Origin: the human T2T-CHM13v2.0 reference genome, Homo sapiens
Length of the DNA: 64,000 nucleotides
Assembly: GCF_009914755.1 (NCBI RefSeq)
Contig: NC_060932.1
Reading direction: 5' to 3' (one strand)
The notes under the pieces were generated by a model. The model did not search any database. It was not told the origin of the DNA and saw nothing but the letters and a program-made list of their open reading frames with translations. This document shows, one piece after another, positions 21,576 through 63,949 of the stretch. A program made the translations under genes and the position numbers. How positions within the stretch are numbered: position 1 is the stretch's first letter; each line of letters begins with the position of its first letter.

Positions 21576-21576
21576 T

Positions 21577-22812: not shown

Positions 22813-22814
<2 letters not shown>

Positions 22815-22869
<55 letters not shown>

Positions 22870-23372
22870 GTGAAACAGCCAAGGGCAAAGTGGCTCCCAG
22901 AAAAACTCCAATCAGCCTGTACACTGGGGTGGCGCCTCAAAAAGTGGAGCTTTTTGCAGTGGGGAGGAGTCCGGCCCCTCCTCTTTCTATCTGGGATTTA
23001 AACTGTGAGGCAGGAAGCACTCTAGCAGGGACTCTGGCCTTGTGGAGAGTCCTGTTTCCCCCTTTTCTTCCCTTTCTACCAATAAAACCCTGCTTTACTC
23101 ACCCTTCAAACCATCTACGATCCTAAATTTTCATGGCCGTGGAACAAGGACCCTGTCTTTAGTGAACTAAGGAAAAGTCCTGCAACATATGTGTGTGTGT
23201 GTGTCTGTATGTATATATATACATACACATACATACACTCATATGTGTATGTGTCTGTATGTATATATATACACACACATACATACACACATATATGTGT
23301 ATATATACACGCACACACATATACATACACACACACATATACATATATACACACACATATATATGTATACAT
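22815..23372. repeat. (CA)n and compound (TA/CA/TG)n microsatellites flanking an LTR
   Basis: (CA)n at ~22815-22862 and mixed dinucleotide tract at 23188-23372. Confidence 0.9.
22871..23187 (+). mobile_element. Short solo LTR (probably ERV1 class; family not assigned)
   Basis: TG...CA termini (tgaaacagcc...cctgcaaca), internal aataaa, 4-bp TSD tatg (22867-22870 / 23188-23191). Confidence 0.8.
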
Positions 23373-26300
23373 ATTCACCTCTTAAAATCACTCCACAGTT
23401 CATGCATACTCTGGTTTTTTTCTCTCTCTTTGAATTTCAGTTTGAGAACTTTCTATTGACATATCTTCAATGTCACTGAATCTTTCCTTGTCCATGTATA
23501 ATATGATGGTGAGCCCATCTAAAGCATTCTTTCTTTCTGCTACAGTGTTTTTTATTTCTAACACTGACTTTTGATTTCTTCTTTAAGTTTTAACCTAGAT
23601 GCTTATATTATTCATCTATTTTGCATGTTGTCCACTTTTCCACTAGAGACCTGAGCATATTAATCGTTGTTATTTTAAATTCCTCGTAGGATAATCCTCA
23701 AATCTCTGCCATATCTGAATTAGATTATGATACTTAGTTTCAACTTGTCTTTTCTTATATTTTAGCATTTCACGTCATTTTATGTTAGAAGTTGGATATT
23801 ACATCTTGGGTTACAGGTACTGACATAGATTGGCCTTTAGTGTGACGGTTATGTTTATCTGGCTAGGAATTATACTGTGCTTACTGTTTATTGTACCCAC
23901 AGGTGACTGAGGCTTCAATTTCCCTTAGCGTCTTTGTGTCACCCCTTGTGTTTTCAGGTTTCTCTAGGAAATCATTCTTAAATAAATTCTGAAACTTTCA
24001 ATTTTTCAATTGTAATTCTCCATTATTTACAGTAGTCCTGTTGATGTGGTTGTAAGGTATGGGGAAAACAGCATTCTATAGTCTTATGATTGGGTTGCTA
24101 TCTTCCACTGAGCCTGTGTCCTGGGCTGTGACCTTTGAAAGGGCTTCTCAGCTTCTCCCCACTTAAGTGAAGCAGGAAAGCTAGAGGAGGATGAGTTGAA
24201 TGGATTGAATGTTTTTCTTACCTCACATTAGTTAGGCTCTTGTAATTCCCCTTGAAGGAGAGGGTAAGGGCAGGCTGCTCTGGGCTTACATTACAGTGGT
24301 TATTTTTATCCTCCCTCTGCCAGAAGCATGAAGAGATTATACTCCAATTTTCACAGTGAGAACTTGGCAGGGCTCCTGGAGGTAAAACACAAAAGTGTAA
24401 AGACCCCCCTGAGACTGAACCCCTAAGACTTTTAAACTCTCAAGCTTGTCTACACTGAGCCTCAGGTTTTCATGAATTAAGTTACATGTTCCCAAAAATA
24501 CTGGCTTCAACTGTGGTTTTCTAATCCTGAGCTTTATTCCCTAAGATTGAGGACAAACTGTCACTCTCTGTATATTTACCTGTCTGTCTCTCCTCTTTTC
24601 AGGGCAGTAGTTTTCCTGTGACCTCCATTCTATGATGGATTTCAGAAGATTGTTTATTTCAGTTTATTCAGTTTTCCCCTGGATAACAAGATGGAAGGGA
24701 TAACCCCAAACTTTACTTGTTGGAGTAGAAACCAGAAGTCCTGGTAAACAGATTTTAAAACAAATGTATTAAACAAAAAAAACTTCACTTTGGAGCCAGT
24801 GCTCTCATCAAACCCTTCTTCAGGGACATTCAGGAAAGGGAGAGGTTTTACTCCTTTCTTTATTGTGCCTTTGCACAAATAAAGGAGGTTTTTTGTTTTG
24901 TTTTTGTTTTTTAGTTGCATATACCTTTATTATCCATTTATGTTCAGAAATAAAAAACAAAACCAGGAAATTCAATAACGTATAGTTAAGAGCAAAAAAA
25001 ATCATGAAATTTTGGGAGTATGTCATCAGTGCCACTCTCTGCTCTTTGTGGACCAAGAATTAATTACTAAACAGAATTTTGACATAAAAGTGAGTTGGCA
25101 CATGTTAGAATCTTTAAACAAGACATAACTAGCTCTAACACTTTAAGTGGTTTAAAAACACAAATAGCATGCTTTCAACTTGCGTATGTCACAGTGAAGA
25201 GGGAGCTTTTCTTTTCGGTATCACTATTATTACCCCAGCTTATTGCTGTATCTCTTACTTATATGGTAAGGGAGTGCTCAGTGACAGTTCAAGTATTCCC
25301 CAGTTTTGCTTTCCTTCCGCATGTAAAACCTTGATGTGGTCAGACTATGGCTTGAAAGTTGTGATGACCACCCTGCTGGAGGCTGCAGGGTATTCTCAAG
25401 CCCACTGACACCCCAACCCTACAACCTCAAGTGTTCTGGCCCTTGGACACCAGAATTCTTCACCCTGGTCTCACGCTGTTTTAGCTGTAAGTCTCCGAAT
25501 CTCATGGTTTTCCATAACAGTGCTTACTAGACATCCACAAGGATCTCTGTTACTTTGGCAATAATGATAGAGTCTGTCTCAGAATTATACATGTGCTAAT
25601 CTGGATTGTAACATGTTAATTCCAGACGTCAAGTTTCCAACAATCAAGGAGAAAAATGACTGTAATCCATTGACAATTCCTCTCCCATACTGTGTCAAAA
25701 ATGGTCCAGAACACAATCCTACATGCTGGAATTATTTCCTCCGCCCCTGTCCCATCCCCACCTTGGGCAAAGATTTTCTAGCAAGATCTGAACTTTAATC
25801 CATTTCTCTTCACCTATGTATCCTGAGTAATTTGGCAGAAGGAGTTCTTTCTTAAAACTTTGCCATATAATTCACAAATGGAAATGTGAAGGGTCAATAG
25901 ATATGCGAAGAACTTATTCACCCATATTCACTGGGAATCAGAGAAGTGAAAATGAAAAGAACACTGAGCTATCATCTTAGATACATAAAACTGTCAAACA
26001 TTTGAAGGTGGCTAACACCAAGTGTCAATCAGGATATGAGGAAAGTAGGAATTCTTCTACACAAGAGGACAGAAATCTGGCAGTGCCAAAAGAAAAAGTA
26101 CATCTATGATCTGCCCCTCCGCAGATCCCATTCCTAATACATATATCCCAGCGAGTTCTGCTAATCTGCAGAGGATGTCTAGAAACGCATTCATCACATC
26201 AGTGTTTATAATAACCAGGAGTAGGAGGCAATCAAATGTCCTTCACAAGTGGAACTGGTAAGTTAAAGAGACTTAGGTTGGGTTTCTCTAAAAGCAGGCC

Positions 26301-27744
26301 CAAGACAAGGATTTGTGTTCCAGGGGCTTATTTTGATTTAGAAGATGATGTAAGGAATCACCAGTGCGGGAGTGGAACAGTGAACCCAGGGCAGCTTGAG
26401 AATCAATAAAAAGGTGCATTGTTGGCAGGTTGCCTGTGAAGAAAGGGAGCATAATCCTACTAGACAGCACCAGGAGGCAGTTTTGTACATGCCTAAGAGT
26501 AATCCCACCTTAGCCTGTAGAAAACAAGGATATTTAGTCTCCAATTCCCATCATCTGGGCTGAGGGGTGGTCCCCAGTGGATTTAATTTGCAGATCCATC
26601 TACCTGCTCAAGCACAGGCCAAAAGAAAAAGAAAAGCCTTCCCACAGAGAGTGCCAAGTTCATACAGGACACCAGAGGCATGTGTTGGAACAGTAGGTGC
26701 TGAAGGCACAGCACGAGGTAATAATTATGCCATGAAAACTGCCAAATTCACTCATATGTGGAATCAGAAGAAAACATACCATAGAAGTTAAGAGTAGAAT
26801 AGTGGTTACCACAGACTAGGGAGAAAAGGGGGTGAGGGAGATGGAGAGAGGCTGATCAACAAGCACAATGTTACAGTCACAGAGGAAGAATAAGTTCTAG
26901 TACTCTGCTGCCCAATAGGGTGACTATAGCTAAAAATAATGTGTTGCGCATTGCAAATAGCTGGAAGGAAGGATTTTGAATGTTTTTGCAACAAATGATA
27001 AATGTTTATGGTGACAAACACGCTAATTACCATGATTTCATCATGACACAATGTATACATGTATCAGAACATCACATCGCACCCCATCAATATGTCCAAT
27101 TATTACGTGTCCATTAAAAAACATACATATTATAAATATTATGTTATTAATACATATTTATATTAGAGGGAAATGCATACAAAACAGCAAGAGTTATGGA
27201 TCAATGCCATTAATGTAAATAAAAAACACAAGCCGAAATGAAAATCATAAAACATGTCATACTCATATCATACATGCAGTTATTTCAGATACATTACATG
27301 CTACCTTTGAGTAGAGAGGTGAGTGGAAGTAAGGAATAGAGATAAAAGGAAGAAAAAAAAACATAGAGGCCTTAAAGAAATTGATTAATAAACTGTGCCA
27401 TAAACCTGAAATGTGACTAAACCTTCCATCTTCCTCTTCTGCCTCCTCTAGGTTATTGGTTCTGCTTTTCCTGGACTTTTCCCAAGCTCTCACCTTCCAC
27501 GTAACACATGGGAAGTCTCGCATTAGGCTCCCAGATAGCAGAAACCAGGTGAAATAAAAGGGCACAGCCCTCCCAGCATGTATCATGGAGATCATCGCAT
27601 AATATAACTCTCCGCACTTTTTAATGAAAGGATTTGAATAAGAGATCCAAAGCAGCAACCTGGAGCCCTGCAACTATACACTTCCCAGGGATTCCTGGGA
27701 TGATTCTAATGAGAATCTGGAGTTGGGACCAGTTGCAAATCTAA

Positions 27745-27890
27745 AGAGATCACTTCACTTTCAGACTTCAGAAGTGGCAGCACTTCCTCTGCAGACTTTG
27801 GAAGGGAGAGCATTTCTTCCGCAGGCCTAGGAAGTGAAAGGATTGCATTCATCCTGGTTCCACATTGCTGACTGAAGTCAGCGGAGCTTG
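27745..27890 (+). pseudogene. NATP: Relic non-coding first exon of NATP
   Basis: gcagactttggaagggagagca...ggattgcattca.cct.gttcc aligns to NAT2 exon 1 at 58772-58872; donor ttg|gtaagt at 27891. Confidence 0.8.
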
Positions 27891-29539
27891 GTAAGTAATT
27901 TGCAGTGTACTTTCAACTCGAGGTGTAAACCAAAAATAAAATCCTAGGCCCCCCAACAGACTGAATGGATTCCCTCCTGGCCAAGAAGACCCCAGATAAA
28001 CCTGAAAAGCTAAATTCCAGGACATAATGAGAAGGAAAGTTAGACAGGCCTCATTATACCCCCTCCCTTTTGGAATTTAGGCACAACTGTTCAATCATTA
28101 ACATTGAAACAGAGATCATAAGACGGGCAAAAAGGATTCTGCGGCAATAAGATACCAAATTCCAACATCACTCTCGTATAGCATCACATGACAGGTAGCA
28201 GACCCTGAAAAAATCAACATATTTTACACCAAAATACATTTCTTTGACATATTTTGAAATGGCCTTCAAAGCTACCTTAAGTGGAAAAATTTGTATCTGT
28301 AGACAATCTCCTTCCCTTTCCAGGCCTTTTCCAAATCTGGGAGAGATTAAATGAGAGCCTGACACCTTTAAGGTCTGAAAAGAGACATTTACCATCTATT
28401 TTTTCTATTCTAAGGCTGCTACCTGGAGGTTTCATTTACATAACAAGAACCGTGGCTTCCGCAACCCCCCTTATCTTAACACAAGCATTTCTTCCTTCTG
28501 ACTTAAAGTCTTTAGACAAGGCTTAACTTTCCAACCGATTTCCAGTATGAAAATCTTTTAATCCACCTGTGATTTGTAAGCTCCCCCACTTTGACATGTC
28601 CTACCATTTTTGGGCCAAACAATGTATAGCTTGTATGGGGGCCACACTTTAGGAGGCTCTTGGCCTCTTAAAGTTTCACTAAAAATCACTGACATGATTA
28701 ATAGGAGAAAAGGCATACAGATTTGTTAACTTGTATACACAAGAAACTTCAGGATGAAGACCAACTTCCCAACGATTTATAGAAACTCATATACTGTCTG
28801 AGGCCACAGTAAAGAGTGCAGACTCAGTGCATGGTCAGAAACAGGTAAATTAGGTTTAGTTGCAACACGGGTTAAAAGAGAGAGAAAGAAGAAGCTAGGC
28901 TAGCAAAGGTGGCCTCTTTATGTAAATGAAACATCCCTTACCATGAATCGATAGCAAATGTTTCTTTTCACGTCTTTAATGATGTCAGATTCTCAATCTC
29001 TCCTGGATCTAAGGGAGGGCATATGTAGGGGAGGGGGGCATGGGTGCATGAATGGAGATTCTCCACTAATGCAAATTTTCCCCACTTAAGACAGCTTTGC
29101 AAGGCCACTTCTGCCTACTGGCCAAGCGGCAGCCATTTTGAAATATGTCAAAGAAATATATTTAGTGGTAAAATATTTTTATTTTCTTCAGTCACCACTT
29201 TGAAACCTCAAACAAGTCTCACATACAAAAAGCCAAGCTGATAGCTTTGGAGAGATTTGGGTTAGAGGCATTGAAAAACAGATAAAGGAATGGAAAAACA
29301 AACTGGGAATAATATTAAAAAAGCAAATTTAAATAGATCCTCTCATATCTGTTTTCAGCAAGCCTTTTAGTACTGAGAAGAGGTCAGTTCAGTTAAACAG
29401 TCATGTCATATTCCAGGAGGTGGCACTGCAGATGCGCTAGGCCTCTTTATATGATGTAGGCAATTAGCTTTCTAATAAGCGGCATTTCTATAGAAAGAGA
29501 ACAGAAACAAAGGTTACTGTCTGGAGTAATCCGTCTATA

Positions 29540-30006
29540 TGTCAGGCCTCTGAGCCCAAGCTAAGCCATCATATCCTCCATGACCTGCACGTATACATCC
29601 AGATGGCCTGACGCAACTGAAGATCCACAAAAGAAGTGAAAATAGCCTTAACTGATGACATTCCACCATTGTGATTTGTTTCTGCCCAACCCTAACTGAT
29701 CAATGTACTTTGTAATCTTCCCCACCCTTAAGAAGGTTCTTTGTAATCTCCCCCACCCTTAAGAAGCGGTTCTTTGTAATTCTCCCCACCCTTGAGAATG
29801 TACTTTGTGAGATCCACCCCGCTGCCTGCAAAACGTTGCTCCTAACTCTACTGCCTATCCCAAAACCTGTAAGAATGAATGATAATCCCACCACCCTTTG
29901 CTGACTCTCTTTTCGGACTCAGCCCACCTGCACCCAGGTGGAATAAACAGCCTTGTTGCTCACACAAAGCCTGTTTGGTGGGCTCTTCACATGGACGCGG
30001 GAGACA
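29540..30006 (+). mobile_element. HERV-H solo LTR (LTR7)
   Basis: tgtcaggcctctgagcccaagctaagccatcatatcc...; tandem ttctttgtaatctcccccacccttaagaag U3 repeats; 5-bp TSD ctata (29535-29539 / 30007-30011). Confidence 0.93.
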
Positions 30007-31370
30007 CTATAGATTAGTTTTTCCTATGTCTCTGAGGCATCCTCAGATTGCAGTGGCAATCTGAAAGATCCTTCTGGATTGTAGTTCAAGCCAGGCATTC
30101 AACAACCTTCGTGCCTGATGGCATTCAACCATCAGGGCCTGTGCCTGTCAGAAAGTGACATTCTTTACTCAAAAACCTGCAAAGGAACTTGTAAATAAAC
30201 TGTACGAACAAGGTATGGGGACGGTGTTATCCAAAAGGCTTCTGTCAGTTTCATAAACAAATCTCAGTTTCTTAAAATTATGCCATTCCAGTCAAAGCCT
30301 TGATAAAACAACCAGTGTCTCCAACTGTGTCCTGTTACAAAAGAAAGCTTCAAAACAAAGCAATATTTCCCTCCATTATGACCTAATTCTGTACTCTTGG
30401 TTTTTCTTAATATGAGTAGGGGCTAGGGGCCCTCTGAAGGGTCACTGAAAAATCAACTCAAAAAAGATAGATTAGTTGAAGAGAAGGCATGCAGATTTGT
30501 TTGGAGTGTGTATGCTGGAGCCTTCAGAATAAAGATTCAAACACATGGGGGAAATTGTCCATCTTATGCTTAGGTACAACAAGGTATGGGCAGATGTAAA
30601 AATAAGATTGAGCTAAAAGGCATAATCTAATGCTAATTGGTTGAATGAGGAAACCCAGAAATGCCTGTCTGTCCAGATCCCTCTTGACCTCTCAGAGCAT
30701 GTACTCCTTCCTACTGAGGGTATGGGGATCTTATAACCTACAGTCCAAGAAGGTAGGTCATATAATTTTTTATGGCCAGTTCTTACACAGGAAAGTAGAG
30801 GAAAGTTAAGTAATATTTTTAGGCATCATGGATGGTTTTGAGAAAAAGGTGTTCTGATTTCTAAGGCCTTCCTTGGGCAAGGGAGATTCTAGTTTGTATG
30901 GCCAGCTTTGAGGGAAAACTGGACTGAGAAATAAGACGGCAGAAAGACAAAGAACCTTTCATTTCTAAGACTGAAATGAGGCTTTCATTTTGGGGGACCA
31001 TTTTCTGAGCCCTAGCATGTGTTTAAGGTGTTTGATGTAACCAAGAAACTTCCCATGCTGTTGATAAGAGTCACATATTTCCCTGCTCAAGGTGCCAGTT
31101 GTTTAGTTTCTTGTTTCCTCTATCATATAGAGTTCACTTATGACTATGGGCACATTCTTCCTTTGTGTGATTAATTCAAATTATCTTTTCAGCAGGTTTG
31201 ATTTTCAAGTTATCTAAATGAACTTTCCATAAGGAAAACCAGTCATATTGCAGGAGGTTTTGTTTATCTTTCTGGTAAATAGCCTAAAGAAACAAAGATT
31301 TGACTTTTTGTAAGGATCACTTCTGTGTTGTTTTTATTAGTTTTTAAAAATTACATAGAAAAACTAACTC

Positions 31371-49449: not shown

Positions 49450-51600
<2,151 letters not shown>

Positions 51601-52062: not shown

Positions 52063-52563
52063 CTGCATTGACCAATAACCTTCTTTGATATATAAATGTT
52101 CTGTATCTGTGCTATCCAATATGTTAATCACTAGGGCTACTGAGCACTTAAAATGTGGCTAATACAACCCAAGAACTGAGTACTTAATTAATTCAATTTA
52201 TTAAGTGATACATTATTTATTTATTTTGAGATGGAGTTTTGCTCTCTTGCCGTGGCTGGAGTGCAGTGGTGTGATCTTGGCTCACTGCAGCCTCTGCCTC
52301 TCAGGTTTGTGATTCTCCTGCCTCAGCCCCCCAATTAGCTGGGATTACAGGCGGCTGCCACCACACCCAGCTGATTTTTGTATTTTTAGTGGAGAAGGGT
52401 TTCACCATGTTGGCCAGGCTGGTCTCAAACTCCCGACTTCAAGTTGATCTGCCTGCCTTGGCCTCCCAAAGTGTTGGGATTACAGGCATGAGCCACCGTG
52501 CCCAGCCAATTTTATTTAATTTAAATAGCCACTGATGGCTGCTGGCTACCAAAATGAAGACCA
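52063..52563. mobile_element. MER3-like DNA transposon split by an Alu
   Basis: aaatgttctgtatctgtgctatccaatat...ctactgagcacttaaaatgtggcta...aatagccactgatggct. Confidence 0.6.
52215..52507 (-). mobile_element. Alu (S-type)
   Basis: ttttgagatggagttttgctctc...ggcatgagccaccgtgcccagcc. Confidence 0.95.
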
Positions 52564-52964
52564 GTTTCATGCAATGGGCATGCTTAGATTCAAAACATCC
52601 CCCTTATCTGTGCTCCTCATTTCTTTGTAAGATCATCTTCCTTCTTAAGTTTCATTTTCTTAAGAGATAGGATGACATGAAGGGATTTTTCAGCAAGCAA
52701 AAATAATGAACAACTGACACTCAAAGTGAAAAATATTTACAGGGGTGTTGAATTCTAGACTTCTTGTTTCCTCAGCAATTTTCATATTTCCAGCTTTCAT
52801 TGTTGCTGTTGAGAAATCAGCTGTCAATCTGTCTTCCTTCTCAGGGCACCTGTTTTTCTTCTCTGGCTAAGGATTGTAAGATTATTGGATCCGGTTTTTA
52901 TGTTCTACAGTGATGTGCAGATACCCCAGGGTGTGTGTTTAAAATTTACTTGGAAGTTGTTGGA

Positions 52965-53330
52965 AGCCGTGTCACTTTCATTCCTCCAGCAAACAGATTC
53001 AGAGACTAAGTGATGAGTGTAAAAGGGCTATCAAGGGCTAACACCTGTGAAAGACAAGGGCCGAAAGCAGAATGGTACCGGGAGAGCCTCACACCACGAT
53101 GCAGAGTGAACAGTCTCAAATAACTCACGGGGAACCGTGGAGCAGTCTGCCTATTAAAGGAGTGCTTAGTCACTGGGTGGAGGCCACCCACACAGTGCAT
53201 GTCCTTAGCTCAATGGCTGAAGCAGATGCAGAAGGCAATGGTCTGGACTGTCAACAATCTACACTCCTTGCAGCTGAATGGCCAGTTATTTCTCAAAAAA
53301 GATCAAGAGGTGCACCTCCATGGCTGCCAC
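52965..53330 (-). mobile_element. Old MLT1-type LTR
   Basis: ttcctccagcaaacagattcagagact...gagcctcacaccacgatgcag...gcttagtcactggg. Confidence 0.5.
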
Positions 53331-53789
53331 AGGTTTCCCAAATCTCAAGACTGTTGTTCTCTTTCATCAAGCGGGGAAAATCTCAGCCCAGACATCTCTT
53401 CATTTCCCACCAACCCAGTCATTCGTTAAAAAAATAAATTCTATCAAGCATTTTCAGTTCAGCCACACCAGAGAGACTTTTGAGAACATCTAGCATGCTA
53501 CAATGCCAATTAGAAACCTGTTTTAAATTGTGTACCCTGGGAAAATTTCCCATTTTATCAAATTTTTAAGGAGTGAGGGGCCTCTTGTCTGAATAGCTGC
53601 TCAGTAAGTGTGATTTCCTCACTCCAAGACACTTAGAAAACACCAGCCACACTGGACCACTTCTGCAACAAAGCACTCACCTGGGACAGAAGCCATCTGA
53701 CATCTGCTGTCTGTCCTCACCCCTATCCCTCTCATTAGGTAACAGCAAACTTCCCTCTACCCCCACTCAGCTCCACCCTCTGCCAGGAA

Positions 53790-54140
53790 ACTTTTACTTT
53801 CTGACTCCAGGAGGGTAGTGAGGCATGTCAGTCACTGCCCCACAACTGGAGCCAGCAACTGGTTCAGAGGTGGCCATGTGGCCCAACTTACATCCATGAT
53901 CTGGAAAGGTACAGCTCCCTTCCACCCTTTGAATTTTGAGCTGCGGAATGCGGCCCGGGCTACTAAGGCAGATAAAAGAATGAGACTCAAACAGGCAGAA
54001 GCCAAGAGAGCAGAGAAGACCATGGTGTTCTGTCCCGGACACACGGTGCCTGGATGGGCTCCAGCTTCTCCCGAGTGCCAGGTGCCCATACACCCCACCC
54101 CGGGGTTGTCCTCCCTTCCAGTGAGTTTTGGACTAAGGCG
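53790..54140. mobile_element. Old MLT1-type LTR
   Basis: gcaactggttcagaggtggccatgtggcccaa motif and MLT1-like tail. Confidence 0.45.
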
Positions 54141-54219
54141 GATAATTGGCAAAGGACATTCTCTTCCTGTCCTATGGCCCCTGTGAACACGGGCAGGGGA
54201 AGAAGGGCTAGTGATTGTC

Positions 54220-55299
54220 TCACCCCAAACTCCTCCCACCCACCCCTACCAAGGTTCCTCTTCTCTGACTCTGCAAACCTCTGGGAAGCTCTCAGGCCTC
54301 ACAGAGAAGACTGGAGGGCCGGATCTGGTTCACTCTTTCCCTAGGGTCTGAAGGATCTGCGCCCTGTGTTCAAGGACGACGCTGAAACATTCTTTTCTGC
54401 GTGCCTGATCTGAGGCCTCACAACTCAGGTGAGCAAGACTGTGTCCCTTTCACATGGAGAAGCCGAGTTCCACGGAGGTTGAGTGAGGAGCCGGCATCAC
54501 ACAAGGACTCGGAGGGGCTCCTCGAGACTCGCGGGACAGAGACGGCAGCCCCAGGTGGGAAAGGCCCAGGCCAGGGACACGCTGGGCCTGGGGTGGGGGA
54601 AGGGGGGAGCCCTCGGGCGCCCCCACGAGGCCGGCGCGCTCCAGGTCCTGGACGGGATCGTCCCCTTGCGGGCCCAGTGCAGGGAGCGCGGGGAGCTGGC
54701 CGCCTTCTTCCTGCTTAGGTTTTGGCGCCGCCGCTTCTTCTCCACCTCGTCCGCCCCGCGCTCCTCCCGCTGGCGGCGCCGCCGCCGCCGCTCCCGCGCT
54801 TCTCCCTGCGCCTCAAGCCCCTAGGGCAGGCGCTAGGCGTTCCGGATTGTCGCGCCCTCCGCCTGGTTCGGCAGGTCTGTCCGCGGCCCCTTCACGTTGG
54901 CCTCCAGCTCTCGTGCCTTCCGCTGGTCCCGGCCCCGGAGTTCAGCAGCGCCCGGACTTCCTCCCTTTCCGCTGCGCGAGGCTCCCCTTCAGCTCCTGCC
55001 TCTTCCTCCTCTTTGCGCCTTGCTGGCCGGCTCGTGCTCATTCACCTCCACCTTGTGGACGACCAGCCCCGACGGCTCCTGCGGCTCCTTGCAGGCCACC
55101 TCTGGGTGGGCTTGATCGCCGCCCCGGCCCTCGGCCCTCTCGGCCTTGGCCTTTGCTCCCTTCCCTTTTTGCCGCAGCTCTTTCGCTTCCTCTTCCGGTC
55201 CCGCTCCTTCTCTCGTCGCCTTTTCTCCAAAGCGCTTGGCCTCAGCTCCTTAGCATTGTCCTGGCCCCGGGCCTCCTGTATTTCCTCCTGCAGTCGCAG
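54220..55299 (-). pseudogene. SURF6: 5'-truncated processed pseudogene of SURF6 (C-terminal CDS plus 3'UTR)
   Basis: Minus strand reads LQEEIQEARGQDNAKELRPSALEKRRREKERDRKRKRK / ACKEPQEPSGLVVHKVEVNEHEPASKAQR / ELRGRDQRKARELEA / RRRQNLSRKKAA / QDLERAGLV (ending 54624), matching in order recalled SURF6 segments (IQEARGQGSAKEL, NKVEVSEDEPASKAQR, RRRQNLRRKKAA, C-terminal QDLERAGLV). Frameshifts and stops; no introns; UTR-like continuation ctttcccacctgggg...; no clear poly(A) or TSD. Confidence 0.88.
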
Positions 55300-55400
55300 T
55301 GGTTTTAATGTATGGGGGAAAGAGAACCATTGTACAGGCCTTTGATGAGGTCGCTATCTTCTAGTGAGCGTTTGCCCTGGGACGTGACTTTCGAAAGTGC
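54470..55400. promoter_or_regulatory. CpG island
   Basis: The only strongly GC- and CpG-rich stretch in the window; GC boxes and a (GCC)n run at ~54777-54790. Confidence 0.85.
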
Positions 55401-58400
55401 TTCTCAGCATCCATTCCCCCCTCCCCTCCACTTAGGTCTGAGACAGGAATGCTAGAAGGGTTGGAGTTGAATGTTTCTCTTACCTCACTTCAGTTAGGCC
55501 CTTGTAATTTCCCTTAAGGGAAGGAGGACCAGAATGCTCTGGACTTATATCACAATGGTTATTTTTCTCCACCTTCTGCCAGGAGCATGAAGAGACTATT
55601 CTCCAGTATTCACAGTGAGAACTTGGTGGGCATCCTGGAGGTAAAACACAAAAGTGTGAAGACCTCCTGAGACTGAGCACCCAAGAGTTTTAAACTGTCA
55701 AGTTTGTCTACACTGAGTCTCAACAATTCATGAATTATTACATGTTTGTATGTTGCTAAAAATACTGGCTTCATCTGTGGTCCTCTGAACCTGGGCTTTA
55801 GTTTCTAGAATTGAGAATAAATTGTGATTATCTGTCTTTAACTGTCTGTCTCTTTTCAGGACAGCACTTTGCTGTGACTTCAATTCTGTCATGGATCTGA
55901 GAAGATTTATTTTCAGTTTGTTTAGTTTTCTCATTGATGAGAAGATGGGAGGGATTATCCCAAACTTTACTTGTTGAAGTGAAAACCAGAAGTTATGCTA
56001 AATGTTAAAGTAGATAATAAGCAAAAAAAAAAAAAAAAAAAAAAAAATTAGCTTGGATATAGAGCCCTTCTTCAGAGAAGATCAGGAAAGGAAGAACATT
56101 TATTTCTTTCTCTGCAAAAATATAAGTTTTGTTGTTAGCAAGGAAACAGTCAATTATCAAACTTTAGAATCTTGACATAAAAGTGAGTTAGCACATGTGA
56201 GAATCTGTAAACTAGACATAACTAACTCTAATGCTTTTCTTTAAAGACACAAACAACATGCTTTCTACGTGTATAAGTCACAGTGAAGAAGGAGCTTTTC
56301 TTTATGGTATCACTGTTGTTGCCCAGCCCATCTCTGTATCTCTTACTTGTATGGTGAGGAAGTACTCAGTGACAGCTCAGGTATTCCCCAATTCTGCTCT
56401 TCTTCCACATAAAAAACTTTGATGAAGTCAAATTTTGGTTTGAAGGTCTTGATGACCACCCTGTGGGAGGCTGTAGGGTATTCTCAAGCTCTCTGACATC
56501 TCACACTCCCAGCCTCAGGTGTTTCTTCCCTTGGACACCAGGATCCTTGACTCTGGTCTTACTCTCCCTTAGTCACAAGTCTCCTCATCTCATAGTTTCC
56601 CATGACGGTTCTTGCTGGACATCCTCAAGGATCTCTGTCAAACTGACAATAATTAGAGGCAATCTCAGAATTACGCATGTGCCAATCTGGATTGCAACAT
56701 TTTAATTCCAGGTGTCAGGTTTCCAACAATCAAGGAGAAAAATGACCATAATCCATTGACAATTCCTCTCCCACACTCAGTCAAAAATGGTCCAGATCAC
56801 AGTCCTACATGCTGGAATTATTTCCTCTGCTTCTCTCTCACCCCACCTTGGCCAAAGATTTTCTAGCAAGATCTGAATTTTAATCCATCTCTCTTCGCCT
56901 GTGTGTCCCGACTAATTTGGCAGAAGGAATTCTTTCTTAAAACCTTGCCATTTAATTCACAAATGGAAATGTGAAGGGTCAATAGGTATGTGAAGAACCT
57001 ATTCACCCGTATTCACTGGGAATCAGAGAAGTGAAAATGAAAAGAACACTGAGCTATCATCTTAGATACACAAAACTGTCAAACATTTGAAGGTGGCTAA
57101 CACCAAATGTCAATCAGGATATGAGGAAAGTAGGAATTCTTCTATACAAGAGGACAGAAATCTGGCAGTGCCAAAAGAAAAAGTACATCTATGATCTGCC
57201 CCTCCGCAGATCCCATTCCTAATACATATATCCCAGCGAGTTCTGCTAATCTGCAGAGGATGTCTAGAAACGCATTCATCACATCAGTGTTTATAATAAC
57301 CAGGAGTAGGAGGCAATCAAATGTCCTTCACAAGTGGAACTGGTAAGTTAAAGAGACTTAGGTTGGGTTTCTCTAAAACCAGGCCACAAGACAAAGATTT
57401 GTATTCCAGTGGCTTATTTTGATTTAGGAGATGATTTAAGGAATCACCAGTGCGGGAGTATAACAGTGAACCCAAGACACCTTGAGATCAATAAAAAGGT
57501 GCATTGTTGGCAGGCTGCCTGCAAAGAAAGGGAGCATAATCCCAGTAGACAACACCAGGAGGCAGTTTTGTACATGCCTAAGAGTAATCCCACCTTAGCA
57601 TGTAGAACACAAGGATATTTAGTCTCCAGTTCCCATCATGTGGGCTGAGTGGTGGTCCCAGGTGCTTTAATTTGTAGTCCATCTGCCCAAGCACAGGCCA
57701 AAAGAAAGCCTTCCCACAGAGAGTCCCGAGTTCATGTGGCAGCATGCCAGAGGTATGTACTGGAACAGTAGGTGCTAAAGGCAACAATTACATCATGAAA
57801 ACTGCACATCTCACTCATATGTGGAATCTAAAAGTAATTTAGCTCATAGAAGTTAAGAGTAGAATAGTTAGAGTAGTAGAAAGTTAAGAGTTGTTACTGG
57901 AGAGAAAAGAGGGTATGGAAGCTAGAAAAAAAGCTAGAAGGAAGGATTTTGAATGTTCTCATGACAAAGAGATGATAAATGTTTGAGGTGACAGACATGC
58001 TAATTACCATGATTTGATCTTTACACAATGTCTGCATGTATCAGAACATCACACACTACCAAATAAATATATACAATTGTTATGTGTCAAAAAACATTAT
58101 ATACAATGTTTATATTTTATATTAATATTAATGTAAATAAAAATTTACACAAATCTTTTCATTAAATATGGTGTGGATAATTATATTATCTGATGATACC
58201 CATGCCACAGGCTAGGAGAAATAAAAATTTACATTAATGTTAATGTCAATTAAAAAAGCAGAAACAAAGCCATATGATACATGTGACACTTATACCACAT
58301 GCATAGAGTTATTTCAGACACATTGTGTGTTACCTTTGGGTAGAGAAGTGAATGAGAGTGAGGATGAGAGATGAAAAGAGGCAGAAGAAAAAGAGAGGCC

Positions 58401-58771
58401 TTATAGGAAGTGATGAAAGTGTGCCATAAACTGAGAGTATGACTAAAACCTTTCATCTTCCTCTTCTGCCGCTTCTAAGTTATTGGTTCTGCTGTTCCTT
58501 GACCTGTTTCAAGCTCTCACCTTCTATATCACACATGGGAAGTCTGGCATCAGACTTCCAGAGAGCAAGAACTAGGTGAAATACAAGGGCACAGCTCTCC
58601 TAGCCTGTGGCATGGGTATCATCAGATAATATAATTATCCACACCATTTTTAACGAAAAGATTTGCGTAAGAGATTCACAGAGGCAACCTGAGGCCCTGC
58701 AACTACATTTCCCAGAGATCCCTGAGGTGATCCTAACTAGACTCTGGTGTCAGGGTGATACGGAATTCCAG

Positions 58772-58872
58772 TGAGATCACTTCCCTTGCAGACTTTGGAA
58801 GGGAGAGCACTTTATTACAGACCTTGGAAGCAAGAGGATTGCATTCAGCCTAGTTCCTGGTTGCTGGCCAAA
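58772..58872 (+). other. NAT2: NAT2 exon 1 (non-coding 5'UTR exon); intron continues past the window end
   Basis: tgagatcacttcccttgcagactttggaagggagagcactttattacagaccttggaagcaagaggattgcattcagcctagttcctggttgctggccaaa matches the recalled NAT2 mRNA 5' end; donor aaa|gtaagt at 58873; downstream of NATP as in the 8p22 order NAT1-NATP-NAT2. Confidence 0.93.
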
Positions 58873-59710
58873 GTAAGTAGAACTTTGTAAGTAATTTGCA
58901 GTGTACTTTGAAAGTGGGGTATAAATTAAAAATAAAATCAAGTCCCCCTACTGACTGAATGGATCCCCTCTTGTCCTAGGCGACCCCAGAGAAACCTGGA
59001 AAACTAAATTCCAGGCCATAATGGAAAGGGAGGTCAGACACGCCTCATTATACACACTCCCTTTTGGAGTTCAGGCACAACTGACCAGCATTAACATTGA
59101 AACAGTGATCATAAGACTGTCAAAATGGACTGTTTGTGGGAATAAGATACCAAATTCCAATCTGACTCTGGTTTAGCATCACATGACAATAGCAGACCCT
59201 GAAGGAAATCAATATATTTAATCCCCAAAATATATTTCTTTGACACATATTGAAATGGTCTTGCAAAACCATCTTTTATGGGGAAATTTGCTGGTTTCTG
59301 GCTCTGCTCTGATTGAGGAGAGAATAAATGAGAGTCTGACACCTTAAAAATCTGAAAAGAGATATTTACCATCTGTTTTCTCTAAGGCTGCTAGCTGGAG
59401 GTTTCATCTACATGACATAAACCATGGTTCCCATAAGCCCTTTTAACTCAAGCATTTAATTGTACTGACCGCAAGTCTTTAGACAAAACTTAACTCTTCA
59501 ACAAATTGCCAATCACAAAATCTTTGAATCCACCTTTGTCCTGTAAGCTCTCCTACTTCAATATGTCTGATTTTCAGGCAGAGCCAATGTATACCTTATG
59601 TGGGGGCCATAGGCTGTTGGCCCCCTAAAGCTTCACTAAAAGTCACTGTCATGTGACAGGTTGATTAACAGGGGAAAGGGAGTACAAATTTATTTAATGT
59701 ATATACATGG

Positions 59711-60228
59711 TCTATTAGCCAGGACCCTTTAGAGGGCCAGAACTAATAGGATAGATGTATACATAAAGGGGAGTTTATTAAGGAGTAGTGAGTCACATGA
59801 TCACAAGGTGACGTCCCACAGTAGGCCGTCTGCAAGCTGAGGAGCAAGGAAGCCAGTCCGAGTCCCAAAACCTCAAAAGTAGGGAAGCCGACAGTGCAGC
59901 CTTCAGTCTGTGGTCAAAGGTCCAGGAGTCCAAAGGCTGAAGAACTTGGAGTTTGATGTTTGAGGGCAGGAAGCATCCAGCACAGGAGAAAGATGTAGGC
60001 TGGGAGACTAAGCCAGTCTAGTCTTTCCACATTCTTCTGCCTACTTTCATTCTGGCTGTGCTGGCAGCTGATTAGATGGTGCCCACCCGGATTGAGGGTG
60101 GGCCTCCCTTTCTCAGTCCACTGATTCAAATGTTAATTTCCTTTGGCAACACCCTCACAGACACACCCAGGAACAATACTTTGAATCCTTCAATCCAATC
60201 AAGTTGACACTCAATATTAACCACCACA
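59711..60228 (-). mobile_element. MLT2A (HERV-L) solo LTR
   Basis: Minus strand starts tgtggtggttaatattgagtgtcaacttgattggattgaagg; TSD catgg/cttgg; empty site in the NATP paralog at ~28740. Confidence 0.9.
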
Positions 60229-61468
60229 CTTGGGAAACTTGAGAATGAAGACCCAACTTCCCAGTAAGTTACAGAAACTCATGTATTATTCCGAGGCCAC
60301 AGTAAAGAGTGGAGACTCAAAGCATGGCCAGAAACAGGTAAATTAGTTTTAGTGGCAACACAGGTTAAGAGAGAGAGGAAGGAAGAAGCTCGGCTAGCAA
60401 AGGTGGCCTTGTTATGTAGACGAACCTTTTCTCAGAAGCAAAAGATGGTAAATGTTTCTATCCAGATCTTTAAAGGTGTCAGACTCTCAATCGCTCTGGA
60501 TCCTGGGAAAGGCTTAGAAACAGGAGAGGGTATGGCTGCATTAATGGACATTGTCCACAGACGCAAATTTTCCTCAGTTAAGACAGTTTTGCAATGCCAC
60601 TTCTGCTTTTTGGCCAGTGGAAACCATTTTTAAATATGTCAAAGAAATATATTTGAGGGTAAAATATTTTGATTTTCTTCAGTCCCCACTTTGAAATTTA
60701 AAACAAGTTTCACATACTAAAAGCCAAGGTAATAGCTTTGGGGAGATTTAAGTTAGAGGTGTTTAGATAGAGACAGTCATAGCAGTGGAAAAACACATTT
60801 GGGATAAATATAAATGAGCAAATTTAAATATATCATTCCATATTTTCTTTAGGCAGTCCCTTGGTTTTGAGGTGAGATCAGTTCAGTTAAATATCTACGT
60901 CCCATTCCAGGAGGTGGGACTGCAAATGGTTTAGGCCTCTAGACGTAATGTAGGCAATCAGATTTCTAGTAGGAGGCATTTCTGTAGAAACAGAAAAAAA
61001 TAAATAAATAAATGTTACTATCTGGAGTAGTCTATATATCTAGAAAAGCTAGTCTATAGCTTTTTCTCTGAGGCGTCTTCATATTGCAGTGGCAATGTCC
61101 CAGATTTCCCTGGAAGTTCAAACCAGGTGTTCCACTGAACTTTCTGAGAAGGCCTCGCATCAGCAGATATGCATGAAGGTTGTTTATAAGTTACTGTTAT
61201 TTTCTCCTGATACCTTCAGTTTGCAAGACTTTAAGAAAACCCCAGTTTTAATTTCTAGTGAATTCAAGTAAGAAAAATGGGAGAAAACGTTGAAAATGTT
61301 ACTTTGCAGACTTGTAGCCAGAAAAAAATTCAGGATTTGGTCTAACTTGTAAAAAATAATAAAAACTGAAAAAACAATGGGCAAGGCTAGAAGATACTAA
61401 CAGATACACTATAGTTTTTGAAACATAGTATTTCTGCTTCCAGTTCTTCAATTTTATGAAAGACATAG

Positions 61469-61878
61469 TTTCATGCACATCCGTGTGAAGAGACCACCAA
61501 ACAGACTCTGTGTGAGCAACATGGCTATTTATTTCACCTGGGTGCAGGCGGGCTGAGTCCTAAAAGAGAGTCAGGGAAGGGAGATAAGGGTGGGGCCGTT
61601 TTATAGGATTTGGATAGATAAAAGAAAAGTACAGTCAAAGGGGGGTTGTTCTCTGGCAGGCAGAGTGGGGGTCACAAGGTGCTCAGTAGGGGAGCTATTG
61701 AGCCAGGATGAGCCAGGAGAAGGAATTTCACAAGACAGTGTCATCAGTTAAGGCAGGAACAGGCCATTTTCCCATCTTTTGTGGTGGAATGTCATCAGTA
61801 AGGCAGGAACCGGCCATCTGGATGTATACATGCAGGTCACGGGATATGATGGCTTAGCTTAGGCTCAGAGGCCTGACA
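61469..61878 (-). mobile_element. HERV-H solo LTR (LTR7B-like)
   Basis: tttcatgcacatccgtgtgaagagaccacc...ggctcagaggcctgaca; U3 variant ttccttctcctggctcatcctggctc; TSD catag/cacag. Confidence 0.92.
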
Positions 61879-63949
61879 CACAGTAGAACTGATTTATTTG
61901 CAAAATAAGTTTTGTTACTATACTTGGTCTGATTTTTTGCATAAAGGGCAGCAAGAATAATTATTTACTATATAGGCTCCTTTTTAAAAAATGGCTTTGC
62001 TGGAACATTCTTTTTTATAAAGAATCTCATATTAGACCTCTTAAAAGCATCCTGAGCCCAACCAAGGATTTATCTGTTTCTACGACATACCTGTATGAAT
62101 TAAGTGAATTCTCTCTCAAGGTCCCAAAATAAGTTGGGGTTCCTGGGCCTGTCAGAATGTGACCTTTTACCCATTACAGGCCAGAAACCTGTAAAGGAAC
62201 CTGTAAAGGAACTGCATAGACAAGCTGTGAGGCCAGTTTTATCCACAGGGCTATTATCAGCTTTATAAAGTCCCAATATCAATTTCTTAAAAATAGGGCA
62301 TTCCAGTCAAATCCTTGATTTTTGTCTCCACTTGTGGCCTGTTACAAAACAAAACAGATTCTAACTGAATTTATGCAAATAATTATATTCCCATAAATTA
62401 GCAATAATCACTAAGAGTTTCCAAATTTCAGAGAAATCAGGCAGATAGAGGGAAATATGCTTCAAATTTTGCTCACAAGAGTATACTTTACACAAATATT
62501 AAAAGCTGTAAATGTCTAAAAAGAAAAAAATTTTGACTCTGAAAAACAAAAGTGGCAATGTTTCAACAAAACCCATAAAAAGATTATTTCAGTCTTCTAT
62601 TATTTCAGTCCATGCAATTAACTCCTATTCTGTTAGATATTGGGTGAGCAATCTTCATGAACATATTAGTTCTCCATGAGAGTCCTGGGAGTTTTTTTTC
62701 TCTATACCAGTGGCACAATCTCCAAAGTTATCATAAAGCTTCATTCAAAAGCACCCCTTAGAGTCCTACAGCTAATTGCAAACCACCTTTTTAAAAGCAC
62801 CAAAGTAGAACAACTGTCAATGACAGAAGTCTTAGGACAGCCATGGTCAAGGACACACTTAACAAGGAAATTTGGTTATTTCTGTGGCATATAACAATTT
62901 AACATAATAATTATAAATACTAATAACATATATAAAGACATCAGAATGATAGGAATATCACGCAATGTTGAAAAACATACTAGTAACAGGTTTAATATAA
63001 ATGTAGAACAAATAAAGTTGAACACCATTTCATATTTGACAATGTTTCCTATATGATTTTAACATGCCAAATACACCGAATATGTCTGTTTTTGGCTTCA
63101 GGGGACTTAATATCAAAAAAGATAATGAGGTCAACAAGACTGAATTTAGAATTTGATTTTGGAAAGTTTGATTTTCTTCAGTCCCCACTTTGAAACTTAA
63201 AACAAGTTTCATATATTAAAAGCCAAGGTAATAGCTTTGGAGAGATTTGGGTTACGGGTATTTAGATAGAGACAGATATTGTGGTGGAAAAACAAATTAC
63301 AATCACCAAACAGGTCATTGTAAATAAGTCATTCATTTAGGCAAAGTGATAACTCAAAGATTTCAAAAAGTAAAAACCTTCACTCTTTGAGAGAGAGGAC
63401 TCACTTTCACAAACAATAAGACGTAATAAAGACAGCATGAGGCCAACTAAATTTGTCTCTCTTCCCCAACCCATCTTTTTTTTTTTTTTTTTGCAGTTTT
63501 CTCAAAAGGTAAGCAAAAATCTTTCACTATCTCTTAATATTAAAAGAAAATCTTATTCAAAGGAAATCTAAATTTTACCATTGCATAGCTTATTATTAAT
63601 GCTAAAGTTAGCATTAATAAAATCTTACAAACAAATCTATTTAATTAGTTGTAACACAAGGTAGAGATTTTTATAAATCTTTTACAACATTTTATAATTT
63701 TCCATAAAAGAGCAGATTAGTATTCTAATAAAACCCTGATATTTTGACATAAGGGCCTAGATTCTGGCCCTGAATTAGTATGCTTTTTATTTTAAGGTTT
63801 AATTTATGCAAAAACTAAATAATCCCTTTCAAATTTTAGCCAGCTGGCTTATATATAGAATTCCTTTTACAAGATCAATGATCAATCTTTCATAAACCTT
63901 TAGTTTTGTCCACATTTTTAACTTAAAACAATCTTTAAAATCTAAAAAA

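What the first reader, a model, noticed from the sequence alone, without database searches (positions are those of the whole stretch)
54220..55400. A SURF6 retrocopy has become the CpG island upstream of NAT2: candidate exapted promoter
Seen: the only CpG island in the window is the antisense strand of a decayed copy of SURF6 (five colinear peptide blocks ending QDLERAGLV, plus UTR-like sequence). It sits ~3.5 kb upstream of NAT2 exon 1 and has no counterpart in the NATP paralog. Known: old retrocopies normally lose CpGs by methylation-deamination, as the RPL10A copy 3 kb away largely has. Inference: this frameshifted copy keeps dense CpG, suggesting germline hypomethylation and possible exaptation as a promoter or enhancer for NAT2 or a divergent lncRNA.
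Basis: partly seen in the sequence, partly recalled or inferred. Interest (0 to 1): 0.85.

Follow-up and report, generated by a model that had tools for sequence, protein, structure and literature searches.

The report
SURF6 pseudogene forms NAT2's upstream CpG island
The only CpG island near the drug-metabolism gene NAT2 is an old, broken, backwards copy of the SURF6 gene that has kept its CpGs where comparable copies lost theirs; it holds an annotated alternative NAT2 first exon, and a clinical study already assays it as "the NAT2 promoter".

Summary
Window 53879-55300 (minus strand) is a 5'-truncated processed SURF6 retrocopy. Three parental exon segments lie end to end without their introns, and the five peptide blocks end in QDLERAGLV.

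Its coding-derived 680 bases (54621-55300) form the core of the window's only sustained CpG island (CpG observed/expected 0.87). That core kept 35 of 63 parental CpGs and shows only 3 deamination products. Three controls decayed:
- the same copy's 3'UTR part: 3 of 27 kept, 12 TG/CA;
- a second SURF6 retrocopy on contig C24: 7 of 62 kept, 35 TG/CA;
- the neighbouring RPL10AP11: 9 of 28 kept, 13 TG/CA.

This argues for long-term germline hypomethylation that depends on the site.

Promoter use is only partly supported. The RefSeq alternative NAT2 first exon (54127-54554) lies inside the retrocopy. Its splice donor was already present on the antisense strand of the parental SURF6 3'UTR. Its start, however, lies in the CpG-decayed part, and I have no expression or methylation data.

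A 2025 paper's "NAT2 promoter" methylation primers map inside the island. The closest precedent is the PPP1R26P1 island in RB1. I rate this a new member of a known kind, of moderate interest.

The parts
53879..55300 (-). 5'-truncated processed SURF6 retrocopy (pseudogene), antisense to NAT2
   Evidence: blastn to the parental gene (L004 = C9:145542500-145552400, sense strand 'L004rc'). Window 55300-55260, 55264-55049 and 55053-53879 match L004rc 4717-4757, 5710-5929 and 6124-7268. The parental introns (about 950 and 195 bases, GT..AG flanks) are absent. PDB SURF6 matches.
54621..55300 (-). Coding-derived part (SURF6 residues ~119 to the C-terminus); core of the CpG island that retained its CpGs
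   Evidence: Five colinear tblastn blocks in frames 1, 1, 3, 3 and 2, with 3 stops; QDLERAGLV at 54650-54624. 680 bases, GC 0.691, 67 CpG, o/e 0.87. 35 of 63 parental CpGs kept and 3 TG/CA; MAFFT recount 28 of 61 kept and 5 TG/CA.
53879..54620 (-). 3'UTR-derived part, CpG-decayed
   Evidence: 742 bases, GC 0.582, 25 CpG, o/e 0.40. 3 of 27 parental CpGs kept and 12 TG/CA; recount 5 of 27 kept and 13 TG/CA. The alignment ends at parental L004rc 7268, 33 bases before a parental AATAAA at 7301. No poly(A) or AATAAA remains in the copy.
54351..55400 (.). CpG island by sliding-window criteria
   Evidence: 17 contiguous 200-base windows with GC >= 0.5 and o/e >= 0.6. Interval GC 0.655, 86 CpG, o/e 0.77.
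54127..54554 (+). Alternative NAT2 first exon (RefSeq 'other transcript'), lying wholly on the antisense strand of the retrocopy's UTR-derived part
   Evidence: Exon coordinates come from the hub's annotation table, not from a call. GC 0.565, 15 CpG, o/e 0.44. Homologous to the antisense of parental L004rc ~7020-6640.
54555..54563 (+). Splice donor of the alternative exon (CAG|GTGGGAAAG)
   Evidence: Sequence read. The 16 bases GCCCCAGGTGGGAAAG are identical on the antisense strand of the parental SURF6 3'UTR, so the donor was inherited, not created.
54928..55060 (+). Amplicon of a published 'NAT2 promoter' methylation-specific PCR
   Evidence: The primers of PMC11937569 (passages read), written as bisulfite-degenerate patterns, each match once in the window: 54928-54949 and 55033-55060. 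No match was found in 100 shuffles for either.
55299..55960 (+). Right part of an old interspersed repeat; left edge of the NAT2/NATP paralogous block
   Evidence: Many genomic copies at 66-79% identity. Colinear paralogy 55299-62353 against 24046-30346. On the NATP side the repeat continues leftwards through 24046; on the NAT2 side it is cut at 55299.
58809..58872 (+). Canonical non-coding NAT2 exon 1 (NM_000015.3), 3.4 kb downstream of the island
   Evidence: Hub annotation table. 0 CpG in the exon.

Best explanation
Window 53879-55300 is an old, 5'-truncated processed pseudogene of SURF6 (parent on contig C9). It lies antisense to NAT2, at the left edge of the block that NAT2 shares with NATP.

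The parental 3' exons were already GC- and CpG-rich. At this site the 680 coding-derived bases escaped germline methylation. As a result their CpGs have mutated no faster than other dinucleotides, and the stretch persists as a CpG island. The adjoining UTR-derived half, and a second SURF6 copy elsewhere in the genome, decayed in the usual way.

The retrocopy has been used structurally by NAT2. An annotated alternative first exon starts in the UTR-derived half. It splices out at a donor that already existed on the antisense strand of the SURF6 3'UTR, just before the island core.

Shown: origin, limits, disablement, CpG retention and the controls.

Inferred: germline hypomethylation, from the substitution pattern only.

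From annotation only: use as a NAT2 first exon.

Not shown: that the island drives or regulates NAT2.
For: - Origin: PDB SURF6 matches at E 1.3e-9 and 1.2e-6. The parent was found in the own genome. Three exon segments lie end to end without introns. There are five colinear peptide blocks in three frames with 3 stops.
- CpG retention in the core: 35 of 63 parental CpGs kept and 3 TG/CA in the core, against 3 of 27 kept and 12 TG/CA in the UTR part. Fisher's test on kept versus TG/CA gives p = 2.3e-6.
- MAFFT recount: 28 of 61 kept and 5 TG/CA, against 5 of 27 kept and 13 TG/CA, p = 1.1e-4.
- Dinucleotide control: in the core, CpG retention is 0.46 against GpC 0.59, CpC 0.48 and GpG 0.64. In the UTR part it is 0.19 against 0.49. 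In the C24 copy's core it is 0.12 against 0.58.
- Independent SURF6 copy on C24: ungapped identity 0.83, 7 of 62 CpGs kept, 35 TG/CA; p = 1.5e-7 against the chr8 copy.
- Neighbouring RPL10AP11: identity 0.887, 9 of 28 kept, 13 TG/CA.
- In the core the parent shows more TG/CA than the copy (14 against 3, binomial p = 0.013).
- The alternative exon 54127-54554 (hub table) lies inside the copy, and its donor is inherited from the parental antisense strand.
- The island is treated as the NAT2 promoter in PMC11937569.
Against: - The annotated start (54127) lies in the CpG-decayed part (exon o/e 0.44), about 500 bases upstream of the core. The core is therefore intronic to that transcript, not its classical CpG-island promoter.
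- A review (PMC4158862, passages) describes NAT2 as having one non-coding exon and a simple structure. That is the canonical exon, 3.4 kb downstream of the island.
- The core shows no sequence constraint. Its non-CpG branch length is 0.233 against 0.150 in the UTR part. It has about 141 gap columns and only 2 GC boxes in 1050 bases.
- The retrocopy hallmarks poly(A), AATAAA and target-site duplications were not found.
- Changes cannot be polarised without an outgroup, and alignment in the GC-rich core is uncertain. The counts differ between the blastn and MAFFT alignments.
- The only methylation data seen are from blood leukocytes, where methylated and unmethylated signals were both measured (index cut-off 0.52; PMC11937569). 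No germline data were seen.
Confidence: 0.6

Rival explanations
1. Passenger orphan CpG island. The retrocopy landed where it stays unmethylated in the germline, for reasons of local chromatin or chance factor binding. It keeps its CpGs for that reason alone. The alternative NAT2 transcript is rare transcriptional noise that happens to find an inherited cryptic donor. The island does nothing for NAT2.
For: The core shows no sequence constraint: longer non-CpG branch and many indels. The annotated start lies outside the CpG-retaining core. The donor pre-existed by accident on the parental antisense strand. The main NAT2 exon 1 is 3.4 kb away and CpG-free. The NAT literature seen describes a single non-coding exon.
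Against: The same parental sequence decayed fully at another site, so CpG richness alone does not protect it. Something at this site does, and the nearest annotated transcription unit is NAT2. RefSeq carries a transcript that starts in the element (hub table). In the RB1 precedent, retrocopies in or near genes kept their islands and gained regulatory roles, while intergenic ones decayed (PMC3839921, Discussion read).
Confidence: 0.3
2. Parent-of-origin or allele-specific differentially methylated region, like the PPP1R26P1 island in RB1. The island would be methylated in one germline only, for instance through oocyte transcription from the upstream start at 54127 running across it. That would lower, but not abolish, CpG decay.
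For: It is a retrocopy-derived island that is intronic to an upstream-starting host transcript, the layout of several retrogene imprints (PMC3839921). Blood DNA gave both methylated and unmethylated PCR signal, with an index cut-off near 0.5 (PMC11937569).
Against: NAT2 does not occur in the 12 of 17 supplementary files searched for the nanopore imprinted-region survey PMC9255983. None of the 12 listed papers of the imprinting search mentions NAT2. The PCR index is not an absolute methylation level. CpG retention here is as good as that of GpC-type dinucleotides, which fits absence of methylation in both germlines better.
Confidence: 0.05
3. The CpG richness is not retention. Either the copy is young, or its CpGs were created secondarily, for example by GC-biased gene conversion.
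For: 33-39 of the core's CpGs are not at parental CpG positions. The core's GC content is 0.69.
Against: The copy is old. Ungapped identity is 0.74-0.80, and its branch of 0.15-0.23 substitutions per non-CpG site is longer than that of the C24 copy (0.11-0.12). 28-35 CpGs sit at parental CpG positions. 14-17 of the copy-only CpGs face TG/CA in the parent, which suggests parental loss. The UTR half of the same insertion decayed.
Confidence: 0.03

Closest known systems
PPP1R26P1 / CpG 85 in RB1 intron 2 (Kanber et al., PMC3839921; abstract and Discussion read)
   Same: A 5'-truncated retrocopy whose CpG-rich, coding-exon-derived part persists as a CpG island beside or inside a host gene and supplies an alternative first exon for that gene. 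Other retrocopies of the same parent at other sites lost their CpGs and are methylated. The authors conclude that a retrocopy's fate depends on its integration site, which is what the chr8 and C24 SURF6 copies show here.
   Different: For RB1, the promoter activity, differential methylation, imprinting and presence across Anthropoidea were all shown experimentally. None of this is shown here. The NAT2 element lies upstream of the canonical promoter, not in an intron of the main transcript. The annotated start lies outside the CpG-retaining core.
Distal upstream 'orphan' CpG islands used as alternative promoters of genes with CpG-poor proximal promoters (Sarda et al., PMC5378174; passages read)
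   Same: A CpG island a few kilobases upstream of a gene with a CpG-poor proximal promoter, with an annotated transcript that starts nearby and reads into the gene.
   Different: NAT2 does not occur in that paper's main text (0 occurrences). That paper discusses retrocopies as users of orphan islands, not as their source.
Ordinary processed pseudogenes: RPL10AP11 (window 50761-51466) and the SURF6 copy on C24
   Same: Intronless, disabled copies of an mRNA at an unlinked site.
   Different: They show the usual CpG decay: 9 of 28 and 7 of 62 parental CpGs kept, with 13 and 35 TG/CA products. The chr8 SURF6 core does not.

Membership tests
Processed pseudogene (retrocopy) | Colinear match to parental exons with the introns missing | tested here: met
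   Three parental exon segments abut in the window. Parental introns of about 950 and 195 bases, with GT..AG flanks, are absent.
Processed pseudogene (retrocopy) | Located away from the parent gene | tested here: met
   Copy on C8, parent on C9:145.545 Mb.
Processed pseudogene (retrocopy) | 3' poly(A) tract and polyadenylation signal | tested here: not met
   No A-run and no AATAAA/ATTAAA on the minus strand from 53900 to 53600. The alignment ends 33 bases before the parental AATAAA. Loss is expected at this age, so this does not overturn the intron evidence.
Processed pseudogene (retrocopy) | Target-site duplications | tested here: inconclusive
   None was seen by eye in the flanks, and no formal search was run. 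The right flank is a cut interspersed repeat whose left part is missing.
Processed pseudogene (retrocopy) | Disabled reading frame | tested here: met
   The blocks lie in frames 1, 3 and 2, with 3 in-frame stops and deletions. The copy is truncated before residue ~119 of 361.
CpG island (Gardiner-Garden and Frommer; Takai and Jones criteria, recalled) | Length >= 200 (or >= 500), GC >= 0.5 (0.55), o/e >= 0.6 (0.65) | tested here: met
   54351-55400: 1050 bases, GC 0.655, o/e 0.77. Core 54621-55300: GC 0.691, o/e 0.87.
Retrocopy-derived alternative promoter of a host gene (RB1/PPP1R26P1 type) | A host-gene transcript initiates within the retrocopy | tested here: inconclusive
   The hub's RefSeq table lists a NAT2 exon at 54127-54554, and I showed that it lies inside the copy. 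No transcript or CAGE evidence could be inspected, and the start is outside the CpG-retaining core.
Retrocopy-derived alternative promoter of a host gene (RB1/PPP1R26P1 type) | Island unmethylated, or differentially methylated, in germline and soma | not testable with these tools
   This is only inferred from CpG retention. For blood PCR data, passages of PMC11937569 were read.
Retrocopy-derived alternative promoter of a host gene (RB1/PPP1R26P1 type) | Conservation of the element and its island across species | not testable with these tools
   No other mammalian genome is held. Age is inferred from branch lengths only.

The most novel reading that the evidence does not exclude
The SURF6-derived island is a so far unlisted germline differentially methylated region, of the retrogene type seen at RB1. 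In this reading it controls an alternative upstream NAT2 promoter in an allele- or parent-of-origin-specific way. Part of the unexplained variation in acetylator phenotype, and the blood methylation signal reported as a liver-injury marker, would then reflect allelic epigenetic states of a pseudogene-derived element and not the canonical promoter.
Probability: 0.05. Interest if true: 0.75.

Novelty: new member of a known kind. Interest (0 to 1): 0.45.

Why it matters
NAT2 is one of the classic pharmacogenes: it sets acetylator status and affects isoniazid toxicity. At least one clinical biomarker study measures "NAT2 promoter methylation" at primers that map inside this element. That places the assay 3.7-3.9 kb upstream of the canonical first exon, in a pseudogene-derived island whose link to NAT2 expression has not been shown. 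Knowing what the sequence is should change how such data are read.

For genome evolution it is a clean natural experiment. One parental sequence was inserted twice. One copy kept its CpG island and the other decayed to background. Within the surviving copy there is a sharp boundary between the protected and decayed halves.

It adds a second well-delimited case to the RB1/PPP1R26P1 type. It does not establish a new principle.

Tried and rejected
- Pfam scan of 10 minus-strand frames: no SURF6 family hit, only two unrelated sub-threshold matches. The basic, low-complexity sequence defeats the profile. PDB and genome searches settled the identity.
- Two of four frames sent to the PDB search gave no SURF6 match. 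The C-terminal block was later found by tblastn against the parental translation.
- Poly(A), polyadenylation signal and target-site duplications: not found.
- Empty-site test. The left flank 52500-53900 has no homology to the NATP side 18000-24300. 52540-53878 is single-copy in the genome. I could therefore not decide whether the copy inserted after the NAT duplication, lies at its junction, or was truncated by it.
- Literature on a SURF6 pseudogene at NAT2:
  - 'SURF6' + 'pseudogene': 16 papers, 15 listed, none on NAT2 by title.
  - 'NAT2' + 'SURF6': 6 papers, all association, expression or review papers by title and abstract start.
  - 'SURF6P1': 1 paper, a table entry only.
- PMC12870744 analyses 'CpG islands' only within the NAT2 coding sequence and has 0 occurrences of SURF6, 'retro' or 'pseudogene' (passages).
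- Imprinting lead. NAT2 is absent from the 12 of 17 supplementary files searched for PMC9255983.
- Husain et al. 2007 on NAT2 transcription starts (PMC1931608) is not held, so it was not read.
- GC-box count as a promoter hint: 2 in 1050 bases, which is uninformative.
Full report
**What is there**

The window's only sustained CpG island runs from about 54351 to 55400. Seventeen contiguous 200-base windows reach GC >= 0.5 and CpG observed/expected (o/e) >= 0.6. The only other two qualifying windows lie in RPL10AP11.

Translating the minus strand gives frames that match the solved human Surfeit locus protein 6 (PDB 8fkp_NE). One match covers residues 154-218 at E 1.3e-9 and the other covers residues 119-169 at E 1.2e-6. 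Two other frames and a Pfam scan of ten frames gave no SURF6 match.

A search of the window's own genome found the parental gene on contig C9 at 145.545 Mb. Against a 9.9-kb stretch of that locus (L004), blastn gives three colinear segments on the minus strand:

| Window (minus strand) | Parental sense coordinates |
|---|---|
| 55300-55260 | 4717-4757 |
| 55264-55049 | 5710-5929 |
| 55053-53879 | 6124-7268 |

The parental intervals between these segments are about 950 and 195 bases long and are flanked by GT and AG. They are missing from the window. That is the signature of a processed retrocopy.

The parental reading frame ends in ...RILPQDLERAGLV followed by a stop. They lie in three different frames and carry three stops and several deletions. 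QDLERAGLV is kept at 9 of 9 residues at 54650-54624.

The copy therefore spans 53879-55300. The coding-derived part is 55300-54621 and the 3'UTR-derived part is 54620-53879. It starts at about residue 119 of 361, so it is 5'-truncated. No poly(A) tract, polyadenylation signal or target-site duplication is left.

**Is the CpG density retention?**

The copy is old. Ungapped identity to the parent is 0.78-0.80 by blastn and 0.74-0.76 by MAFFT.

A three-way comparison was made with the parent and a second copy (described below). The chr8 branch has 0.15 (UTR part) to 0.23 (core) substitutions per non-CpG site. The other copy has 0.11-0.12.

The fate of parental CpGs in the chr8 copy and in three controls:

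| Sequence | Alignment | Parental CpGs | Still CpG | TG or CA | Other |
|---|---|---|---|---|---|
| chr8 core (coding-derived) | blastn | 63 | 35 | 3 | 25 |
| chr8 core (coding-derived) | MAFFT | 61 | 28 | 5 | 28 |
| chr8 UTR-derived half | blastn | 27 | 3 | 12 | 12 |
| chr8 UTR-derived half | MAFFT | 27 | 5 | 13 | 9 |
| C24 copy, same coding-derived interval | blastn | 62 | 7 | 35 | 20 |
| RPL10AP11 (against parent RPL10A on C6) | blastn | 28 | 9 | 13 | 6 |

1. **The copy's own UTR-derived half.** It has the same age and the same locus as the core. Fisher's test on retained versus TG/CA, core against UTR half, gives p = 2.3e-6 with blastn and 1.1e-4 with MAFFT.
2. **A second, independent SURF6 retrocopy on contig C24.** It is at about 18,099,327-18,101,397, has more 5' exons and a longer 3'UTR, and shows ungapped identity 0.83. 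Its o/e is about 0.19. Retention differs from the chr8 copy at p = 1.5e-7.
3. **The neighbouring RPL10AP11,** 3 kb away, with ungapped identity 0.887 to its parent. RPL10A is highly conserved, so most of that divergence probably lies on the pseudogene branch. Its age may therefore be similar to the SURF6 copy's (inference).

A dinucleotide control points the same way:

| Sequence | CpG retention | GpC | CpC | GpG |
|---|---|---|---|---|
| chr8 core | 0.46 | 0.59 | 0.48 | 0.64 |
| chr8 UTR half | 0.19 | 0.49 | 0.53 | 0.54 |
| C24 core | 0.12 | 0.58 | 0.67 | 0.56 |

In the chr8 core the parent shows more TG/CA opposite a copy CpG than the reverse (14 against 3). This fits a methylated parental gene body and an unmethylated copy.

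The simplest reading is that 54621-55300 has been unmethylated in the germline for most of its history. The C24 copy shows that this is a property of the site and not of the SURF6 sequence.

Caveats:
- Changes are not polarised by an outgroup.
- Alignment in the GC-rich core is uncertain. The blastn alignment visibly mis-gaps the QDLERAGLV region, and the counts differ between aligners.
- C24 has the length I recall for the Y chromosome, whose mutation regime differs.

**Is it a NAT2 promoter?**

The hub's RefSeq table lists a second NAT2 transcript with a first exon at 54127-54554. I find that this exon lies entirely within the retrocopy, on the antisense strand of its UTR-derived half. It ends at a donor, CAG|GTGGGAAAG. 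The 16 bases around that junction are identical on the antisense strand of the parental SURF6 3'UTR, so the donor came with the insertion. The retrocopy is thus at least structurally used by NAT2.

The evidence that limits the promoter claim:
- The annotated start lies in the CpG-decayed part (exon o/e 0.44), roughly 500 bases upstream of the retaining core.
- The core lies in the intron behind the exon.
- The core shows no sequence-level constraint. It has the longer non-CpG branch, about 141 gap columns and only two GC boxes.
- I could not see any CAGE, chromatin or germline methylation data.
- A NAT review describes NAT2 as having a single non-coding exon and a simple structure (PMC4158862, passages). 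The primary paper on NAT2 start sites was not held.

Promoter or enhancer function therefore remains a hypothesis. A functionless, site-protected island is a serious rival.

**What is already known**

The island itself is not new:
- CpG islands near the NAT genes are mentioned in the same review, which cites Matas et al. 1997.
- A 2025 study of anti-tuberculosis drug liver injury measures 'NAT2 promoter' methylation in blood leukocytes (PMC11937569). Its primers, written as bisulfite-degenerate patterns, each match the window once, at 54928-54949 and 55033-55060 (passages). That places the assay in the SURF6-derived core.
- A review passage reports a similar 2020 study whose amplicon I could not map.

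I found no statement in print that this island is a SURF6 retrocopy:
- 'SURF6' + 'pseudogene': 16 papers.
- 'NAT2' + 'SURF6': 6 papers.
- 'SURF6P1': 1 paper, a table entry listed after X-linked genes. The symbol may denote the C24 copy, which is a guess from recall.

The RefSeq table for this window lists no SURF6 pseudogene. Only open-access full text was searched, and GENCODE and HGNC could not be consulted.

**Closest precedent**

In RB1 intron 2, the island CpG 85 belongs to PPP1R26P1, a truncated retrocopy. It serves as the promoter and first exon of an alternative RB1 transcript. Intergenic PPP1R26 retrocopies lost their CpGs and are fully methylated. The authors conclude that the fate of a retrocopy depends on its integration site (PMC3839921, abstract and Discussion).

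The SURF6/NAT2 case shows the same pattern at the sequence level. It lacks the methylation, expression and cross-species evidence.

Distal upstream islands acting as alternative promoters of genes with CpG-poor proximal promoters are also described (PMC5378174, passages). NAT2 is not mentioned in that paper.

The imprinting analogy was probed and found no support.

**Context and an unresolved point**

NAT2 and NATP share a colinear block, window 55299-62353 against 24046-30346, at 72-87% identity. It begins at the base where the retrocopy ends. The first ~660 bases of that block belong to an old interspersed repeat. On the NATP side the repeat continues leftwards through the boundary. On the NAT2 side it is cut, and the retrocopy abuts it. 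The retrocopy's left flank is single-copy and has no homology to the NATP side. I could not decide whether the copy inserted with loss of target sequence, sits at the duplication junction, or was truncated by the duplication.

**Verdict**

The inference of germline hypomethylation is well supported by internal and external controls. Exaptation is partly supported, by annotation only. This is a new member of a known kind, of moderate interest. Its main value is that a pharmacogenetically important locus, and a published biomarker assay, rest on a pseudogene-derived element whose function is untested.

Noticed in passing
L021 1112-3182 (G000:C24:~18,099,327-18,101,397): A second, independent SURF6 processed pseudogene. 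It has more 5' exons and a longer 3'UTR (parental sense coordinates 3995-7920) and is CpG-depleted to background (o/e about 0.19). Contig C24 is 62,460,029 bases long, the size I recall for the Y chromosome of this assembly. It may be the pseudogene named SURF6P1, which is a guess.
   Followed up: partly
window 55299-55960 and 22267-24675: An old interspersed repeat (many genomic copies at 66-79% identity, family not named) marks the left edge of the NAT2/NATP paralogous block. It is intact across the boundary on the NATP side and cut at 55299 on the NAT2 side, exactly where the SURF6 copy ends.
   Followed up: partly
window 54552-54563 and L004 (antisense of the SURF6 3'UTR): The splice donor of the alternative NAT2 exon pre-exists, with 16 identical bases, on the antisense strand of the parental SURF6 3'UTR. 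A cryptic site was carried in by the retrocopy.
   Followed up: yes
L004 (parental SURF6, exon translated): The parental SURF6 of this assembly reads W and M where PDB chain 8fkp_NE has R and T. By the codon table both could be CpG-to-TpG changes, which would fit ongoing CpG decay in the methylated parental gene body. The DNA was not checked.
   Followed up: no
window 50761-51466 (RPL10AP11): Six parental RPL10A exon segments abut without introns. Ungapped identity is 0.887. The copy retains a short stretch (51051-51300) that still meets relaxed CpG-island criteria, although 19 of 28 parental CpGs are lost.
   Followed up: yes
window 57379-57783 and L008 (G000:C8:18476411-18476819): Only about 400 bases of the NAT2 upstream region have a detectable third paralog about 180 kb upstream on the same contig (76% identity). 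This is presumably the NAT1 locus, but that was not verified.
   Followed up: no
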